In this document: piece by piece, positions 3,880 through 43,552 of the stretch
How positions within the stretch are numbered: the first letter of the stretch is position 1
Layout: each line of letters starts with the position of its first letter
Source of the DNA: an uncultured Acidimicrobiales bacterium
GTDB taxonomy: Bacteria; Actinomycetota; Acidimicrobiia; Acidimicrobiales; Bin134
DNA: 64,000 nt
Assembly: GCA_951813325.1 (NCBI GenBank)
Contig: OX638350.1
Location: forward strand, 1,901,954-1,965,953
Direction: 5' to 3'
The notes under the pieces: generated by a model
What the model saw: only the letters and a program-made list of their open reading frames with translations
Databases searched by the model: none
What the model was told of the DNA's origin: nothing
Translations under genes and position numbers: made by a program

Positions 3880-4047
3880 CTAGTGGTGTGTCGTGGGTTT
3901 AGCGCCGTGGATTGCGACGGCAGCGGCGTTCCTCGCAAGGCGCACTGACGCAGCCATACTTCCAGCGTACGGCAAGGAGGGGCAACGCCGCGAGGGGCGT
4001 CGATGCCTAGCAGGACACGCGCGAATAAACCCACGACACACCACTAG
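3880..4047. mobile_element. MITE-like element copy 1 (~160 bp, 22-bp perfect TIR ctagtggtgtgtcgtgggttta/taaacccacgacacaccactag, flanked by CTAG)
   Basis: Near-identical copies at 31131-31298 (same orientation, 1 mismatch) and 41901-42068 (inverted); terminal inverted repeats read directly. Confidence 0.8.
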
Positions 4048-4244
4048 CCGCAAGTACTCGTGCTCACTGTCCAGCTGCCCCCCACTGCCTCGCACAGCGT
4101 CTCGCTGGTGATCCGGGATTTGTCGATGTTGTCCCCTGTTTCAGGGGCGTTGTCGCTGAGTTGGGCGTAGACGATGATGGCCACGATGGCAGCAGCGGCG
4201 ATGCCAACCACGATCAAGATCATCTGGACGATTGCTGATTGCAT
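4044..4244 (-). CDS. Small hydrophobic membrane protein, candidate atypical Flp-type pilin
   Basis: 66 aa, TM helix, good RBS (gaggaag) right after tadC; lacks the canonical G/xxxxEY prepilin motif, so the pilin call is positional. Confidence 0.4.
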   Translation of the reverse strand: MQSAIVQMILIVVGIAAAAIVAIIVYAQLSDNAPETGDNIDKSRITSETLCEAVGGSWTVSTSTCG

Positions 4245-18617: not shown

Positions 18618-19334
18618 GTGTTCTCCCGTCGGGGCGGGTCTGACCCGAGTCGCGACCGGCCTTTTGTGCCTTTCGGCGGAGTTCACCGACCCTTGGGAGG
18701 TTCTATGACACCGAGGGGGTATCCCGCAGAGTTCCGAAAGCGTGTGGTCGATCTGGTAGAGGCGGGCCGTCCGGTCGCCCAGGTCGCGGCGGAACTGGGG
18801 ATCAGCGATCAGTCGATCTACACGTGGCGGCGGCAGGCGCGTTTCGACGCCGGCGTTGAGCCGGGCATGAGCACGGAGGAGCATGCGGAGTCAGCGGCGC
18901 TGCGAAAGCGGGCTCGCGAGCTTGAGTGTGAGTTGGCGATTCACCGGCGGGCGACTGAGCTGTTGAAGGCCGATGTCGATTCAAAATGGTCCGCAGCCAT
19001 CCGAGTGATGGCCGCGGAAGGGCTTCCGATCGAGAAGGCATGTTCCGTGTTGGGAGTGTCGGTGTCTGGCTACTACAGCTGGCTGAGGCGCCCACCGTCG
19101 GCGCGATCGATCAGACATGCGTGGTTGAGTGAGGTGGTTGGGCAGGTCCACGCCAGCTCCCGTGAGACCAACGGGGCAAAGCGAGTTCACGCGGAGTTGA
19201 CCCCTGGCCTGGGGAGGGGCCGGAACGCCGACCTGGCTACCTACGATGACACAAATGGGGGTCAAACTGTCTCAAGAACGTGGCGAACCCCAGGACGCAT
19301 TCGCCAAGTGCCCGAGAGCGGACAATTTGGCTGA
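18618..19334 (+). mobile_element. IS3-family transposase remnant: OrfA (HTH) fused in-frame to the first ~65 aa of OrfB, DDE catalytic domain missing
   Basis: 'MTPRGYPAEFRKRVVDLVEAGRPVAQVAAELGISDQSIYTWRRQ' (IS3 OrfA) then 'CSVLGVSVSGYYSWLRR...GAKRVHAEL' (OrfB N-terminus), then unrelated tail and stop. Confidence 0.7.
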
Positions 19335-25251: not shown

Positions 25252-26466
25252 GTGCTCCACCACCGCCATCCCTACCGCTGGGTGATGCTGGGGGCACTGT
25301 GGCTGGTGTACTTCTCCTTCGGAATAGCGGTTTTCGGCATGACTCCGCTGGTGAACGTGATCCGAGAAGACTTGGATCTGAGCAAAGGGGCCATGGGAAC
25401 GATTCTGGGGGCTTGGCCTCTGGTGTTTCTCGTTGCGGCGATGCCAGCTGGAGCACTCGTCGATCGGCTCGGACTGCGCCGCTCTCTGGGAATCGCCACC
25501 GTGATCATCTCCGCCTCCGCGCTGTTGCGTCCGGTGGTCACCAACTTCATCGGCATGTTTGGCTCGGTGGCATTGTTTGGCCTCGGCGGGCCGCTGGTTT
25601 CGGTGGGGGCCCCAAAACTGATCAGCGTCTGGTTCGACGAGGAAGAGCGAGCGCTGGCCATGGGGATCACCATGTCTGCACCGGCCATCGGCGGAGTCTT
25701 GCCCCTGGTTACCGCCAACAGCCTCCTCATGCCGGCATTCGACCAGAGCTGGCGGGCGACGCTCATGGTTTACGCCCTCATCACCGTGGCGATCATCGCT
25801 GTCTGGTTGGTTGCTGCTTCCGCCGGAGAGAAGCTCGCTCCTGGAGTGGACCGCGATGCCAATCCCGACCACGGCTTCTCCGGTGCCAGGGGCCTGTTGC
25901 GCCATCGAGCCGTCCAGCTCATGCTGATCGTGGCCCTTGGCATGTTCTTCTTCAACCACGCCCTCAATGGATGGCTGCCAACCGTGATCGAAGACCGGGG
26001 ATTCTCCAGCTCAGCGGCGGGCTACCTCGCCGGTGCGGTCACTGCCCTCAGCATCGTCGGCGCGCTGCTGGGGCCGCGCCTGATCCCAGAAAGCAGCCGG
26101 ATTGCGGTTATGGCCGGGGTTTATGCCGTGTTCGCCGCCGCCTCCATTCTGCTGTATGTGGACGTCAAGGCAGCCACCTTGGCCGGGTTGGCCATAATCG
26201 GCATGAGCAGAGGGCTGGCTGTACCGATTGCCCTTGTGGTGATGATGCAGCTCCCCGGCGTTGCGCAGCGCAATATGGGAGCGGCCGGTGGATTGTTCTT
26301 CACAGTTGGTGAAGCCGGTGGCGTAACCGGACCGATCTTGTTCGGCGTTCTCGCCGACATCGGTGGTTTCGGTGCCGGGCTCGTGCTGCTTACTGGGGTA
26401 GCCGGCCTAACCGGAATCCTGACCCTGGGCCTTCGCTCGGCAATGGCCCGCGTGAGGGACTACTAG
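25252..26466 (+). CDS. MFS transporter
   Basis: 12 predicted TM helices; MFS-like loop motifs. Confidence 0.7.
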
Positions 26467-28733
26467 GCGCCCCGACCCTGGATGAGCTCCTGCAAGGCCT
26501 CGTCATCGCTCACCAGTTTGGTCACCACTGCCTCGTCGACGTCGGCGACGACGATCTCGCCCACCTCGTCGGACACCGACGCGAAGAAGCCCAGCTCCTT
26601 CATGCCCACGGCCTGGCGATAGTTGTCCTCGGTTGGTGTGAGGTATTGGATCGACACCGCGTTGTAGCGGCGGATGAGGTACAGGTGCATGAGGGCCATA
26701 AGCCGCTTGCGGCGCAGAGCGGGGCTGTGGGTGTTCTGGTCCCGCACGGAGAGGATGGCCCGGCCACGCCGGTCGTTCAGGACTCCGAAAACCACGTTGG
26801 CCAGGTCGTTCGTGCCGCTGTAGACCACCAACTCGAGGATCTCCGAACCGGCGGTGTAGGGCCGCAGCCGGACCTTCAACTCGGCGTCGACGCTGTTGTG
26901 GGCCGCCCAGCGCTCCAGCCAGGCCTCCAGCTCGCGGGTGGGAACCTCGGTCTGCACCAGGTGCTGGAACTGGGTTGAGCCCTTGCCCATGGCTCGGGTG
27001 GTGGCGGTGCGCCCCGAGCTGGCCATGAGCGCGGCGTCCAGGCGGGGTCCGCCCACCAGGGTTTGCGGTGTCCTGTAGGGAGAGTCCACCAGGCGGAACC
27101 TGCGCTGGAGCCGGGCCAGGGCCAGCATCCCGTCCTGTTGGAGGGACGCAGCGAACTCCTCCCCCGCCATGCCGTCCACCTGGTGGCCGCCGTAGGTGAT
27201 GAAGTTGAACACGAACCCCAGGCGCCCCAACTCGGCGGGGAATTGCCGCATCTCATCCTCGGTCATTCCGGTGGTGTCCCAGTTGAACGACGGCGACAGG
27301 TTGTAGGCCAGCATCTTGCCGGGATACACCGCGTGAACAGCCTCGGCGAACTCCCGGGCATCCTCCAGGTCGGCGGTCTTGGTCTCCATCCACAAGAGGT
27401 CGCAGTACGGGGCCACGGCCAAAGACTTGGCCACCGCATAGGGGATGCCTCCCTGCACCTGGTAGTACCCCTCAGTGGTGCGGGCCACCTCAGGATCCCA
27501 GGCCACGTCCAGGCCCATCTCGACAGCCCGTTCCCGGGCGGTGTCGGTGTCGACCGAGCGGGCGAAGCCGAGCCACTCGGCGGTGTGCATTCCGAAGCTC
27601 TCCCCCTCCGATGACCGCATCGCAATCTGGTCGGCTACCGCTTGGGCATAGGTGGCCAGCCCCGATGCCCGGTGCCATGCCTCGGCCAGCGCATCAGACA
27701 CCCGGTCTACCGCGTCGTCGGCCCGGGGATCCGGCGAGGAATGGTAGGTGACCGCCGTCTTCTCGATGATCTGGTTGACGCCGGTCTGATCGAGCCATCC
27801 CATGGCCCGCTTGTAGCGGCTCTCGGGCACCGCGTAGAGCAGGTGCCCGTTCACCCCCTCCACACCGACTTCGGCGAGCCGCCGCAAAACCGCCAGGTAG
27901 GCGTCCTTGTAGGAGGGGACCGACAGCTGGGTGGCGCCCATTATGAACGGCTGGTCGCGCTCGTCGGCGCCGCCGTCCAGCAAGTTGGCCGCCTCGGCGT
28001 CGGTGCGGGCCACGATGATGCCCGACACCCCCATCACGTCGAGCTGGAATCGAGCGGCGTTCAACCGCTTGATCTGCTCATCGCACGCCACCAGCACCTT
28101 TCCCCCTTGGTGGCCGCACTTTTTGACACCGGGCTTTTGGTCCTCGATGTGGTAGCCGGGAACCCCGGCCTCCACGAAGCGGCGGACCAGATTGCGAACG
28201 TGGGGATCGCCGCCGTGGCCGGTGTCGGCGTCGGCGATGATGCTGGGAGTGAAATCCACCTCCGGAATGAACTGGCGCTCCGATGGGCTCATCCGGGATC
28301 GGGCGAACCGCTGGTTGCGATCGGCGGTCAACAGTGCCCGCACCAGGCCGGCAGCCTCGTCGGGGACCATGCTCAACGGGTAGCTGGCCAAATCGGGGCC
28401 GGGATCCTCGTGCAAAGAGCCCTTGGCCGATGTGGCCCAGCCGCCCAGATAGATGCCCTCGATCCCCGCCCGCTTCATGGCCACGGCCTGGCCCGGCGAA
28501 TAGGGGCCGAACGTGGAAATGCACCGTCGCTGGTCGAACAGCTCCCGCAACCGGGTATAGAACCGCTCGGCCGCCATCCGGGCCACCGTGTAGTCCTGGT
28601 CGATCAGCCCGCGCTGCTCCACTACTTGGCGAGCCGAGTACAGGCGGGTCACCCCCTCGAAGCGGGGCGAGGCCATCCACGCGTGGGTGGATCGAACCTC
28701 GGCATCGAATGAACCGACAACGTTGGCGGCCAT
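26463..28733 (-). CDS. aceA: Isocitrate lyase, long (ICL2/AceAb-type) form
   Basis: 756 aa; ICL signature 'KKCGHQGGK', strong similarity pattern to mycobacterial ICL2. Confidence 0.85.
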
Positions 28734-31130: not shown

Positions 31131-31298
31131 CTAGTGGTGTGTCGTGGGTTTAGCGCCGTGGATTGCGACGGCAGCGGCGTTCCTCGCAAGGCGCACCGAC
31201 GCAGCCATACTTCCAGCGTACGGCAAGGAGGGGCAACGCCGCGAGGGGCGTCGATGCCTAGCAGGACACGCGCGAATAAACCCACGACACACCACTAG
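31131..31298. mobile_element. MITE-like element copy 2 (same orientation as copy 1)
   Basis: One mismatch versus copy 1; CTAG at both ends; lies between convergent glcB and the flotillin gene. Confidence 0.8.
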
Positions 31299-41598: not shown

Positions 41599-41904
41599 GT
41601 GATTTCCAAAAGCTTGCTAGAAAAACTCGAGAACGCGGCGGATGATTGGCGGTGCCAGGCGGCCTGCCGCGATACCGACCCAGATCTCTTCTTCCCCGTA
41701 GGCAGCACAGGCTTGGCTCTAGAGCAGATCGAGTCGGCCAAGGTGGTGTGCCAGACCTGCCTCGCCCTGGACGATTGCCTGGAGTTCGCCTTGGCCACCA
41801 ACCAGGACTCCGGCATCTGGGGCGGCACATCAGAAGAAGAGCGACGCATGCTCCGCCGCCGACGGGTGGCAGAGCAGCGCGAAGCCGCTATCATCTCGGC
41901 CTAG
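41599..41904 (+). CDS. whiB1: WhiB-family transcriptional regulator (WhiB1-like)
   Basis: 4-Cys cluster 'CQAAC...C..C' plus 'GIWGG' turn; convergent with pdtaS as in M. tuberculosis. Confidence 0.8.
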   Translation: MISKSLLEKLENAADDWRCQAACRDTDPDLFFPVGSTGLALEQIESAKVVCQTCLALDDCLEFALATNQDSGIWGGTSEEERRMLRRRRVAEQREAAIISA

Positions 41905-42068
41905 TGGTGTGTCGTGGGTTTATTCGCGCGTGTCCTGCTAGGCAGCGACGCCCCTCGCGGCGTTGCCCCTCCTTGCCGTACGCTGGAAGTATGGCTGCGT
42001 CGGTGCGCCTTGCGAGGAACGCCGCTGCCGTCGCAATCCACGGCGCTAAACCCACGACACACCACTAG
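41901..42068. mobile_element. MITE-like element copy 3 (inverted orientation)
   Basis: Reverse complement of copy 2; its terminal CTAGs supply the TAG stops of whiB1 (41902-41904) and pdtaS (42065-42067). Confidence 0.8.
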
Positions 42069-43552
42069 CTGCCGGTAGGGGCGCGGCCCCCAAGAAGAGG
42101 GATCGCCACCTCCACCACGGTCCCGGGGCGGGGCGGATCCCCCTCGCCGTCGCTCATAGTGATGCTCCCCCGAAGGTCGGCGCCCACCAGATTCCCTACG
42201 ATGGCGATTCCCAGCCCATTGGCGTTGTCCACGTTGAACCCGGGCGGCAGTCCAACCCCATCGTCGGTCACCCGCACCTCCAACCAGTCGCCGTCGTTGT
42301 CCAATTCGATCAGCACCTGCCCGCCGGGCGGCTCGGGATAGGCATGGTCCATGACGTTTTGCAGGCATTCGTTGAGCACCACTGCCAGGGGCGTGGCCAC
42401 ATCGGCAGCCAGTTCCCCGGCATCGCCGGTCACTTTGAACTCCACCGGCCGGTCGGGACCAGTCAGCCCCTCCTCCACCATCCGCACCAGCGACCGCACG
42501 ATCTCCACGAACGGCACGTCGCTGCTGGCGTCGCGCGACAAGATCTCGTGAACGATGGCGATCGCCCGAATGCGCCTCACCGACTCCTCGATGGCGTCCC
42601 GAGCCTCCGCGGCAACGGCCCGGCGACCTTGCAGGCGCAGCAGCGAGGACACCGTCTGAAGGTTGTTCTTCACCCGGTGGTGTATCTCGGCGATGGTGGC
42701 GTCCTTGGACATCAGCAGGCGATCCCGGCGGCGAAGCTCGGAGATGTCCCGCACCAACACCAACGCGCCGGTCAGCTCTCCCCTGCCGATCAGGGGCAGA
42801 CAGCGCAGCACCACCGTGCCCCGATCGCCGTGCTGGATCTCCTCGGTCTGGGGCAGTCGAGAGGCGAACGCGGCCCGGATGGCCCGCTGCTCCAGGCCGA
42901 TCTCCGCCAGTCGGCGGCCCTCCACGTCGCTGTGGAGACCGATGCGGTGCAGGGCCGAGGCGGCATTGGGAGAAATCAGCCGAACTCGGCCTGATGCGTC
43001 CAACAGCATCAAACCGTCGCCCACCCGGGGAGACTCCTCTGTCTCGATGTCATCCACTGGGAAGGGGTACTCCCCTTCGGCAATCATGGCCGCCAGCCGC
43101 CGGAACAGCTTGAAGTAGCTCATCTCCAACTCGCCGGGGTTGCGCTGGATATCGGGATCGAACTCCCGAGCCATCACCGCGATCACCTCCCCGTGACAGC
43201 TGACCGGCACGGTGAGCGTGCGGATGCGGGGTTGGTCGGCGTGGCCGATGCGCCCGCCGTCGATGATGCGGCCCTCCCGGTAGGCCACGTCCACGAGCGG
43301 ACGCTGGTCAGGGGTGAAGCGAGCCCCCACCAAGTTGTTGCGATGGACAGACCGAGCTGTGGTGGGCCGGATCTGCCCCGCAATGGCATAGCTCTCCGGA
43401 CTGCGAATCCTGCGGCCGGCGGGCACGTACAGGAGCAAGTCGGCAAAGGAAATGTCGGCCAGCGGGGCCCACGTCCGCATGAGCCTCTGGAGATGGTTCA
43501 GGCGCGACTTGGGAAGGCCGGGTGCCAATTCCTCCAGGCTCGCCATCGTCAA
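42065..43552 (-). CDS. pdtaS: PdtaS-type sensor histidine kinase (GAF/PAS plus HisKA_2)
   Basis: H-box 'EIHHRVKNNLQTVSSLLRLQ', C-terminal HATPase; synteny with whiB1. Confidence 0.8.
   Translation of the reverse strand: MTMASLEELAPGLPKSRLNHLQRLMRTWAPLADISFADLLLYVPAGRRIRSPESYAIAGQIRPTTARSVHRNNLVGARFTPDQRPLVDVAYREGRIIDGGRIGHADQPRIRTLTVPVSCHGEVIAVMAREFDPDIQRNPGELEMSYFKLFRRLAAMIAEGEYPFPVDDIETEESPRVGDGLMLLDASGRVRLISPNAASALHRIGLHSDVEGRRLAEIGLEQRAIRAAFASRLPQTEEIQHGDRGTVVLRCLPLIGRGELTGALVLVRDISELRRRDRLLMSKDATIAEIHHRVKNNLQTVSSLLRLQGRRAVAAEARDAIEESVRRIRAIAIVHEILSRDASSDVPFVEIVRSLVRMVEEGLTGPDRPVEFKVTGDAGELAADVATPLAVVLNECLQNVMDHAYPEPPGGQVLIELDNDGDWLEVRVTDDGVGLPPGFNVDNANGLGIAIVGNLVGADLRGSITMSDGEGDPPRPGTVVEVAIPLLGGRAPTGS

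What the first reader, a model, noticed from the sequence alone, without database searches (positions are those of the whole stretch)
41901..42068. MITE insertion supplies the TAG stop codons of both convergent genes whiB1 and pdtaS
The left CTAG (41901-41904) ends whiB1 with TAG. The right CTAG (42065-42068) read on the minus strand ends pdtaS with TAG. The simplest history is insertion into a single CTAG shared by overlapping convergent stop codons, with CTAG duplicated as the target-site duplication. A present-day empty site of exactly this kind exists at 26463-26466, where the MFS and aceA stops share CTAG. The element now lies in the 3'-UTRs of both regulators and could affect convergent transcription, termination or mRNA stability of whiB1 and pdtaS.
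Basis: partly seen in the sequence, partly recalled or inferred. Interest (0 to 1): 0.7.

Follow-up and report, generated by a model that had tools for sequence, protein, structure and literature searches.

The report
MITE inserted at shared stop codons
A 160-bp non-coding mobile element (a MITE) that targets the sequence CTAG landed exactly where two tail-to-tail regulator genes (a WhiB-family gene and pdtaS) shared their stop codons, and duplication of its target left both genes intact; this is a neat but ordinary outcome of a known kind of transposition.

Summary
CTAG at 41901-41904 ends a WhiB-family ORF with TAG. CTAG at 42065-42068 ends pdtaS on the minus strand with TAG. Between them lies a 160-bp element with perfect 18-bp terminal inverted repeats.

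Two further copies, 99% identical and also flanked by CTAG, lie at 3884-4043 and 31135-31294. More occur in metagenome contigs.

The host is not a mycobacterium. It is an Acidimicrobiia bacterium close to the genus Candidatus Poriferisocius.

Eight related lineages (80-84% nt identity) all lack the element. In three of them the two stops share one tetranucleotide (CTAA, CTAG or TTAA). In one, both proteins end at the same residue positions as here. That supports insertion into a shared CTAG with target-site duplication.

Same-species contigs from several metagenomes (99.8-99.9% identical) all carry the insertion, so it is fixed and I found no same-species empty allele.

The duplicated unit (TA or CTAG) and the parent insertion sequence are unresolved. 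Any effect on expression is untested. The element folds into a very stable hairpin but has no U-tract.

One sister species carries CTAG plus the first 10 nt of the repeat at the same site, possibly a remnant.

Verdict: a new member of a known kind, of modest interest.

The parts
41599..41904 (+). WhiB-family transcription factor gene ('whiB1' by synteny with pdtaS). Its stop TAG is at 41902-41904.
   Evidence: ORF. Pfam PF02467 E 7.6e-23. The convergent whiB-pdtaS pairing is seen in 77 of 80 actinobacterial loci.
41901..41904 (.). Left CTAG: one copy of the duplicated target, containing the whiB stop codon.
   Evidence: The same flank ATCATCTCGGCCTAG occurs in relative L081, which has no element.
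41905..42064 (-). MITE copy C, 160 bp, non-coding, in the opposite orientation to copies A and B.
   Evidence: 98.8-99.4% identical to A and B. Hairpin folds at -111 and -120 kcal/mol, z -9.3 and -12.5. No credible Rfam family.
41905..41922 (+). Terminal inverted repeat, left arm: TGGTGTGTCGTGGGTTTA.
42047..42064 (-). Terminal inverted repeat, right arm.
42065..42068 (.). Right CTAG: second copy of the duplicated target. CTA at 42065-42067 is the pdtaS stop (TAG) on the minus strand.
   Evidence: A same-species variant, L117, reads CTAA here, which leaves the stop intact.
42065..43552 (-). pdtaS-type sensor histidine kinase. The probable start is the ATG at 43546.
   Evidence: Pfam GAF_PdtaS, PAS_4, HisKA_2 and HATPase_c. 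Homologues are named PdtaS by their sources.
3880..4047 (+). MITE copy A (element 3884-4043) with its flanking CTAGs. The right CTAG supplies the TAG stop of a 66-aa minus-strand ORF (4044..4244). The left CTAG lies 6 nt upstream of the ATG (3873) of the next minus-strand ORF.
31131..31298 (+). MITE copy B (element 31135-31294) with its flanking CTAGs, between convergent malate synthase G and a Band-7/flotillin gene. It does not touch a stop codon.
   Evidence: Also present in related strain L114.
26463..26466 (.). Unoccupied CTAG shared by the convergent stops of an MFS transporter gene and a long isocitrate lyase gene.
   Evidence: It is not shared in the ~95% identical strain L114.

Best explanation
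The element is a non-autonomous transposon (MITE). A transposase encoded elsewhere, not yet identified, mobilises it by recognising the 18-bp terminal inverted repeats.

The element integrates at the palindrome CTAG. Staggered cleavage and repair duplicate either TA or the whole CTAG. In the ancestor of this species the WhiB-family gene and pdtaS converged on a single CTAG. That CTAG read TAG on the plus strand for whiB and TAG on the minus strand for pdtaS.

Insertion there, followed by the duplication, left one complete CTAG on each side. Neither protein changed by a single residue. The insertion could therefore spread to fixation as a neutral or nearly neutral event.

CTAG is about four-fold depleted in this genome, and roughly one CTAG side in seven is the stop of a credible gene. 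Landing on stop codons is therefore expected for this family, not exceptional.

Shown: the anatomy, the copy family, absence from all related lineages, shared-stop junctions in relatives, and fixation in the species. Inferred: the transposition chemistry, the selective neutrality, and any consequence for expression.

The most likely consequence is passive. The 3' ends of the two genes move from a 4-nt overlap to 160 bp of spacer (stop codons 164 bp apart). Each mRNA gains a very stable 3' hairpin, which may slow 3' exonucleases or attract RNase III. The hairpin is unlikely to be an intrinsic terminator because no U-tract follows it.
For: - Anatomy and copy number.
- Further copies, a 58-bp mini derivative and truncated copies in metagenome contigs, all with CTAG flanks.
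- All eight related lineages lack the element. Three have a 4-nt shared stop, and L001 has the same protein lengths at both ends.
- Shared CTAG or TTAG stops at this gene pair recur in more distant actinobacteria: L009, L014, L056.
- Copy C is 99% identical to the other copies, while flanking DNA is only 80-84% identical to relatives. The insertion therefore post-dates speciation.
- Same-species contigs at 99.8-99.9% identity all carry it.
- CTAG count: 52 observed against 205 expected from base composition.
- 7 of 22 element flanks are TAG stops of credible ORFs, against 12 of 84 background CTAG sides.
- Hairpin energies and z-scores.
- Precedents: MITEPsy1 duplicates CTAG or YTAA (PMC3189936). 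IS630 inserts at TA within CTAG (Tenzen and Ohtsubo 1991, cited in PMC2170065). [quoted passage not shown]
Against: - No empty allele was found in the same species. An exact search for the predicted empty site in metagenome contigs found nothing, and all same-species contigs are occupied.
- The relative closest by PdtaS identity (L081, 90%) has the 14-nt overlap state, not the shared stop. The ancestral state therefore rests on L001, L111 and L084 and on frame and length arguments.
- No autonomous partner with matching ends was found in the window, in the loci held or in plasmid records. The length of the duplication cannot be decided.
- Enrichment of element flanks at stop codons over background is only marginal (Fisher p = 0.067).
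- L107/L108 carry what looks like a remnant of the repeat at the same site. The history of this junction may therefore include more than one event.
Confidence: 0.82

Rival explanations
1. The element has been recruited as a functional module. Its long hairpin would act in both directions as a terminator, an insulator or an mRNA-stability element. It would uncouple two convergent regulators whose transcripts previously had to run into each other. Its fixation would then reflect selection rather than drift.
For: - Very stable hairpin on both strands.
- The insertion is fixed in all same-species contigs from several samples.
- In relatives the genes overlap by 4-14 nt, leaving no room for any 3' signal.
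- Hairpins of Neisseria MITEs are processed by RNase III (PMC2229807).
Against: - No U-tract follows the hairpin, and no terminator-like site was found in the element.
- RNA polymerase from mycobacteria, which are only distant actinobacterial relatives of this host, does not terminate at hairpins lacking U-tracts in vitro (PMC3993855).
- The other two copies sit in unrelated contexts.
- Fixation of a neutral insertion in a symbiont population is unremarkable.
- No expression data exist.
Confidence: 0.2
2. The insertion at this junction is ancient, predating the split of the sister species, and was later lost from relatives by precise or imprecise deletion. The shared stops seen in relatives would then be secondary.
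For: - L107/L108 have CTAG plus the first 10 nt of the repeat (13 of 14 nt) exactly at the whiB stop.
- This is the only occurrence of that 14-mer outside real element ends in 1.2 Mb of sequence held.
- The background maximum is 7 of 10 and 9 of 14.
Against: - Copy C is 99% identical to copies A and B, whereas flanking DNA differs by 16-20% from relatives.
- Seven other lineages show no remnant.
- Part of the L107 match (CGACAC, coding R-H) lines up with homologous codons in L109 (R-Q) and L111 (A-H). Some of the similarity may therefore be ancestral coding sequence.
Confidence: 0.08
3. The CTAGs are the outermost bases of a 22-bp inverted repeat and nothing is duplicated. The element brought two new stop codons with it and replaced or truncated the original gene ends.
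For: CTAG is palindromic, so it extends the inverted repeat perfectly to 22 bp. No empty site for any copy was recovered that could prove a duplication.
Against: - Both proteins end at exactly the positions seen in L001, and the whiB end is identical to L081 up to and including CTAG. The stops were therefore already there.
- An element carrying its own CTAGs and inserting into that CTAG would leave three copies or require an exact replacement.
Confidence: 0.04

Closest known systems
MITEPsy1 of Pseudomonas syringae pv. phaseolicola (thought to derive from ISPsy2)
   Same: A short non-coding element (100 nt) with 18-nt terminal inverted repeats. It inserts at CTAG or YTAA and duplicates the four bases (PMC3189936).
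   Different: There is no sequence similarity. Its repeats start GGAAGG, whereas this element starts TGGTG. The host phylum differs. Here the length of the duplication is unresolved and no parent insertion sequence was found.
IS630 / Tc1-mariner elements and their MITEs (for example RUP of Streptococcus pneumoniae)
   Same: IS630 inserts preferentially at TA within 5'-CTAG-3' and duplicates TA (Tenzen and Ohtsubo 1991, cited in PMC2170065). RUP is a MITE mobilised in trans at TA sites (PMC2229807). With a TA duplication this element would have exactly that target.
   Different: No IS630-type transposase with matching ends was found. No similarity of the repeats to a known IS630 member could be tested.
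Correia / NEMIS elements of Neisseria and ERIC elements of enterobacteria
   Same: These are abundant palindromic MITEs that are co-transcribed with neighbouring genes. They fold into long hairpins that affect mRNA processing, for example through RNase III cleavage (PMC2229807).
   Different: There is no sequence relationship, and no expression data exist here. Any effect on the mRNAs is inference.
Four-nucleotide convergent gene overlaps (CTAG, CTAA, TTAG, TTAA)
   Same: The inferred ancestral junction and the unoccupied site at 26463 belong to this common class (PMC2174442).
   Different: In this case the overlap has been split by a mobile element whose target is the overlap tetranucleotide itself.

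Membership tests
Bacterial MITE | Terminal inverted repeats | tested here: met
   Perfect 18-bp repeats, 22 bp with CTAG included.
Bacterial MITE | Short, with no transposase gene | tested here: met
   The element is 160 bp. Only incidental ORFs of 54 aa or less, with poor codon statistics, cross it.
Bacterial MITE | Multiple nearly identical copies at unrelated sites | tested here: met
   Three copies in 64 kb at 99% identity. At least 14 more ends or copies occur in metagenome contigs.
Bacterial MITE | Flanking target-site duplication | tested here: met
   22 flanks are CTAG. One flank has mutated to CCAG and one to CTAA. Whether TA or CTAG is duplicated cannot be told, because CTAG is a palindrome.
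Bacterial MITE | Presence/absence polymorphism at orthologous sites | tested here: met
   Absent from eight related lineages. Not polymorphic within the species.
Bacterial MITE | An autonomous insertion sequence with matching ends | tested here: inconclusive
   None was found in the window, the loci held or plasmid records. The IS3-family remnant at 18618..19334 has no matching end. Whole genomes could not be scanned.
IS630-derived MITE | TA duplication, with preference for CTAG | tested here: inconclusive
   The flanks are compatible with this, but no copy at a non-CTAG site was found that could separate TA from CTAG.
IS5-group-derived MITE (MITEPsy1-like) | Four-bp YTAR duplication | tested here: inconclusive
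   The flanks are compatible with a 4-bp CTAG duplication, but no copy at a non-CTAG site was found that could separate CTAG from TA.
IS5-group-derived MITE (MITEPsy1-like) | Ends starting GG or GA | tested here: not met
   The ends start TGGTG, or GTGGTG if TA is the duplication. The rule for IS5-group ends is from my own recollection of ISfinder.
Known RNA family (Rfam) | A match at the gathering score | tested here: not met
   The only hit is a spurious one to a plant miRNA precursor, 24.9 bits against a cut-off of 142.
PdtaS sensor kinase | GAF_PdtaS, PAS, HisKA_2 and HATPase_c domains | tested here: met
.
WhiB1 orthologue | WhiB domain, plus convergent synteny with pdtaS | tested here: met
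   PF02467. Synteny holds in 77 of 80 loci. No equivalog model exists in NCBIfam, so 'whiB1' is a positional label.

The most novel reading that the evidence does not exclude
The shared stop of whiB and pdtaS is a recurrent landing pad for this MITE family in sponge-associated Acidimicrobiia. In a sister species (L107/L108) an earlier insertion was deleted imprecisely. That left 10-14 nt of the terminal repeat, which now encodes the last residues of PdtaS (…RHTTRPR*). In the present species the intact element acts as a two-way hairpin barrier that uncouples convergent transcription of the two regulators.
Probability: 0.15. Interest if true: 0.5.

Novelty: new member of a known kind. Interest (0 to 1): 0.3.

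Why it matters
This is a clean natural example of how a target-specific transposon can insert at the very end of a gene, here of two genes at once, without changing either protein. The duplicated target contains the stop codon on both strands. That explains why CTAG-targeting elements can accumulate at gene ends in compact, high-GC genomes where CTAG is rare.

It also documents a previously undescribed MITE family in an uncultivated symbiont lineage. The whiB-pdtaS junction turns out to be a small hot spot of structural change among sister species, with shared stops, 14-nt overlaps, tandem duplications and a MITE.

It does not open a new mechanism or a long-standing question.

Tried and rejected
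- **Predicted empty site.** An exact search for ATCATCTCGGCCTAGCTGCCGGTAGG in metagenome contigs found nothing.
- **Terminal repeat in viral contigs.** No matches.
- **The element against plasmid records.** Only weak partial hits, which I judged meaningless.
- **Autonomous partner.** I screened all YTAR-flanked inverted-repeat pairs up to 3.5 kb in the window and in large related loci. Only the three MITEs turned up.
- **IS3-family transposase remnant at 18618..19334.** Considered as a possible partner because the MITE ends read TG...CA, but I saw no resemblance to the MITE repeat in the sequence upstream of it.
- **Seven metagenome matches to the 18-mer without CTAG flanks (L086, L087, L096, L097, L102-L104).** Set aside as unrelated. 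I suspected tRNA 3' ends, but ARAGORN found no tRNA genes.
- **Rfam.** No real family.
- **Copy-to-copy variation.** Too slight to test RNA covariation.
- **Mycobacterial origin.** Rejected. The best relatives are Acidimicrobiales and Ca. Poriferisocius.
- **Assembly artefact.** Rejected.
- **Enrichment of element flanks at stop codons.** Only marginal, so I do not claim it as a preference beyond CTAG itself.

Full report
**Observation.** CTAG at 41901-41904 contains the TAG stop of a 101-aa ORF on the plus strand (41599..41904). CTAG at 42065-42068 contains, on the minus strand, the TAG stop of a 495-aa ORF (42065..43552). The 160 bp between them begin and end with a perfect 18-bp inverted repeat, TGGTGTGTCGTGGGTTTA. 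The palindromic CTAG extends this to 22 bp. Pfam identifies the short ORF as a WhiB-family protein and the long one as a PdtaS-type histidine kinase with GAF_PdtaS, PAS, HisKA_2 and HATPase_c domains. CTAG 26463-26466 is shared by the stops of an MFS transporter gene and a long isocitrate lyase gene.

**More than chance, and a repeat family.** The 18-mer occurs six times in the window, against 0.04 expected. It forms three 160-bp elements: 3884-4043, 31135-31294 and 41905-42064. The third is in the opposite orientation. They are 98.8-100% identical, and all are flanked by CTAG on both sides. A scan of metagenome contigs for the 18-mer found 21 loci. Fourteen are real copies or ends with CTAG flanks. 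These include full copies at 98% and 95% identity (L090, L093), many contigs that break inside the repeat, a 58-bp palindromic mini derivative (L088) and two truncated copies (L099, L100). Seven matches lack CTAG flanks and look unrelated. The element has no credible coding capacity and matches no Rfam family. On these features it is a MITE.

**Whose genome.** The gene names suggested a mycobacterium, but the window comes from an Acidimicrobiia bacterium. The best PdtaS relatives are Acidimicrobiales genomes assembled from metagenomes, and proteins that their sources name Candidatus Poriferisocius sp.. These relatives are 82-90% identical in PdtaS and 80-84% identical in DNA over the shared region. 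Contigs of the same species (99.8-99.9% identity) occur in several ENA metagenome assemblies. The convergent whiB-pdtaS pair is conserved across Actinomycetota, in 77 of 80 loci. 'whiB1' is therefore a reasonable positional label.

I recovered the orthologous junction from eight related lineages. None has the element. Written in window orientation, the junctions fall into four states.
- Shared stop: L001 reads ...TCGGTCTAATCGGCC.... CTAA holds the whiB stop TAA and the pdtaS stop TAG. L111/L112 share CTAG and L084 shares TTAA.
- 14-nt overlap: in L081/L082, L106 and L107/L108 the tetranucleotide is still the whiB stop (CTAG in L081/L082 and L107/L108, GTAG in L106). pdtaS is shifted in frame and reads 14 nt further, to a TGA inside the conserved whiB codons ATCATC.
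- Gap: L109/L110 have a 12-nt gap created by a short local duplication.
- Tandem duplication: L083 has a 39-bp unit repeated 2.8 times that copies the whiB end.

No relative has a normal spacer. If the element and one CTAG are removed, the window reads ...ATCATCTCGGCCTAGCTGCCGG.... The whiB side is then identical to L081. The PdtaS tail GGRAPTGS* has the same length and frame as GGRSPMAD* in L001. The same shared-stop arrangement recurs at this gene pair in distant actinobacteria: L009 and L014 with CTAG, L056 with TTAG. Four-nt convergent overlaps of exactly these tetranucleotides are a well-known common class (PMC2174442). The reconstruction is the same whether TA or CTAG was duplicated.

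**Age and population status.** Copy C differs from copies A and B at one or two positions, whereas the flanking DNA differs from relatives by 16-20%. The insertion therefore post-dates the species split. Three same-species scaffolds (L115-L117) contain the identical occupied junction, and three contigs (L118-L120) end inside the element. The insertion is thus fixed in the populations sampled, and it is not an assembly artefact. An exact search for the predicted empty site found nothing. Direct proof from a same-species empty allele is therefore missing. One scaffold (L117) has CTAA on the pdtaS side, which leaves the stop (CTA) intact.

**Why stop codons.** CTAG is strongly depleted in the window, with 52 sites against 205 expected from base composition. 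Nine of the 52 belong to the three MITEs. Among the remaining CTAG sides, 12 of 84 are the stop of a credible gene. Among element flanks the figure is 7 of 22 (Fisher p = 0.067). Copy A is a second example in this window. Its right CTAG is the stop of a 66-aa minus-strand ORF (4044..4244). Its left CTAG lies 6 nt before the ATG of the next ORF, so it split a tightly packed gene pair without altering either ORF. A CTAG-targeting element is thus expected to land on TAG stops fairly often. The duplication regenerates the stop each time. Landing on a double stop is the same event at a site where both strands happen to use it.

**Mechanism.** The element most likely moves by a transposase supplied in trans that binds the terminal repeats and integrates at CTAG. 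Two known paradigms fit. IS630 inserts at TA within CTAG and duplicates TA (Tenzen and Ohtsubo 1991, cited in PMC2170065). MITEPsy1, thought to derive from ISPsy2, duplicates the four bases CTAG or YTAA (PMC3189936). I could not decide between them, because CTAG is a palindrome and no copy at a variant target was found. No autonomous partner was found. The ends read TG...CA if four bases are duplicated, which also recalls IS3-type ends. That is a recollection, not a test.

**Consequences.** On either strand the element folds into an almost perfect hairpin (-111 and -120 kcal/mol, z -9.3 and -12.5). Both mRNAs now begin their 3' untranslated regions with it. The gene ends have gone from a 4-nt overlap to 160 bp of spacer, with the stop codons 164 bp apart. 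No U-tract follows the hairpin, and the consensus scan found no terminator or promoter in the element. RNA polymerase from mycobacteria, which are only distant actinobacterial relatives of this host, needs a U-tract to terminate in vitro (PMC3993855). An intrinsic-terminator role is therefore unlikely. A role as an exonuclease barrier or RNase III substrate, as described for Neisseria MITEs (PMC2229807), is possible but untested. My best estimate is a neutral or nearly neutral passenger.

**An unexpected detail.** In L107 and L108, two independent assemblies of one sister species, the whiB stop is followed by TGGTGTGTCGGGGG. This is CTAG plus the first 10 nt of the repeat, or 13 of 14 nt. The 14-mer CTAGTGGTGTGTCG occurs nowhere else in the 1.2 Mb held except at real element ends. 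Among 1,652 CTAG sides the best other matches are 7 of 10 and 9 of 14, and the 9 of 14 cases are probably the same site in L111/L112. A deletion between GGG microhomologies in an occupied allele would give exactly this sequence. There it now encodes the PdtaS tail ...RHTTRPR*. Against this reading, part of the match (CGACAC, coding R-H) lines up with homologous codons in L109 and L111. I regard a remnant of an independent earlier insertion as plausible but unproven.

**Verdict.** This is a new MITE family of a known kind in an uncultivated lineage. The double-stop insertion is an elegant but predictable outcome of CTAG targeting.

Noticed in passing
L107:4373-4386 and L108:4362-4375 (orthologous whiB/pdtaS junction in a sister species): CTAG plus the first 10 nt of the MITE terminal repeat (13 of 14 nt) sits exactly at the whiB stop in a genome without the element. 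It now codes for the PdtaS tail RHTTRPR*. It is the only non-MITE occurrence of this 14-mer in 1.2 Mb held. It may be a deletion remnant of an earlier insertion at the same site.
   Followed up: partly
L083:11510-11620 and L083:11977-12084: In another relative the whiB 3' end, including its stop, is tandemly duplicated (39 bp x 2.8, 100% identical). A second tandem array (36 bp x 3) lies upstream of whiB. L109 has a shorter local duplication, roughly 24 nt by eye, at the same junction. The junction is a hot spot of small structural change.
   Followed up: partly
window 3880-4244: MITE copy A sits inside a run of minus-strand genes. Its right CTAG is the stop of a 66-aa ORF and its left CTAG is 6 nt upstream of the next ORF's ATG. 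It therefore pushed apart two genes that were 6 nt apart, which may disturb translational coupling or ribosome binding. Neither ORF matches Pfam or NCBIfam.
   Followed up: partly
window, whole: CTAG is about four-fold under-represented (52 observed, 205 expected from base composition, 87 from a second-order model). GATC occurs 455 times.
   Followed up: yes
window 41890-41895 (whiB codons ATCATC); compare L081, L106, L107: The conserved whiB codons ATCATC read TGA on the opposite strand. They serve as a back-up stop for pdtaS whenever its tail is frameshifted past the CTAG, giving a recurrent 14-nt convergent overlap.
   Followed up: yes
window 18618-19334: Truncated IS3-family transposase. 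It has the OrfA HTH_Tnp_1 domain, and its C-terminal part looks by eye like the start of OrfB, with no integrase core. I saw no resemblance to the MITE repeat in the sequence upstream of it.
   Followed up: partly
L114:7600-7660 versus window 26440-26490: In a ~95-99% identical strain the MFS and isocitrate lyase stops are not shared (AGCTAGCCGCTACGCG). The 'empty' shared CTAG at 26463 is therefore itself a recent, strain-level state. A segment of that contig also aligns to the window in inverted orientation at only 75% identity.
   Followed up: no
L088:1830-1895; L099:2088-2138; L100:1777-1824: Derivatives of the MITE: a 58-bp palindromic mini copy, a solo end next to what looks like an antitoxin gene, and a 37-nt fragment followed by an 11-nt repeat of its left flank (CCGCGGCCTAG).
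   Followed up: no
L096:602-718, L097:1309-1425 and five other metagenome loci: The 18-mer of the repeat also occurs without CTAG flanks, in same-strand copies about 100 nt apart, in unrelated contigs. They are not tRNA genes. Their nature is unknown.
   Followed up: partly
L121 (1x long-read contig): A same-species contig diverges from the window inside pdtaS and continues into ribonucleotide reductase genes and an IS110-family transposase. This is either a rearrangement or a chimeric low-coverage read.
   Followed up: no
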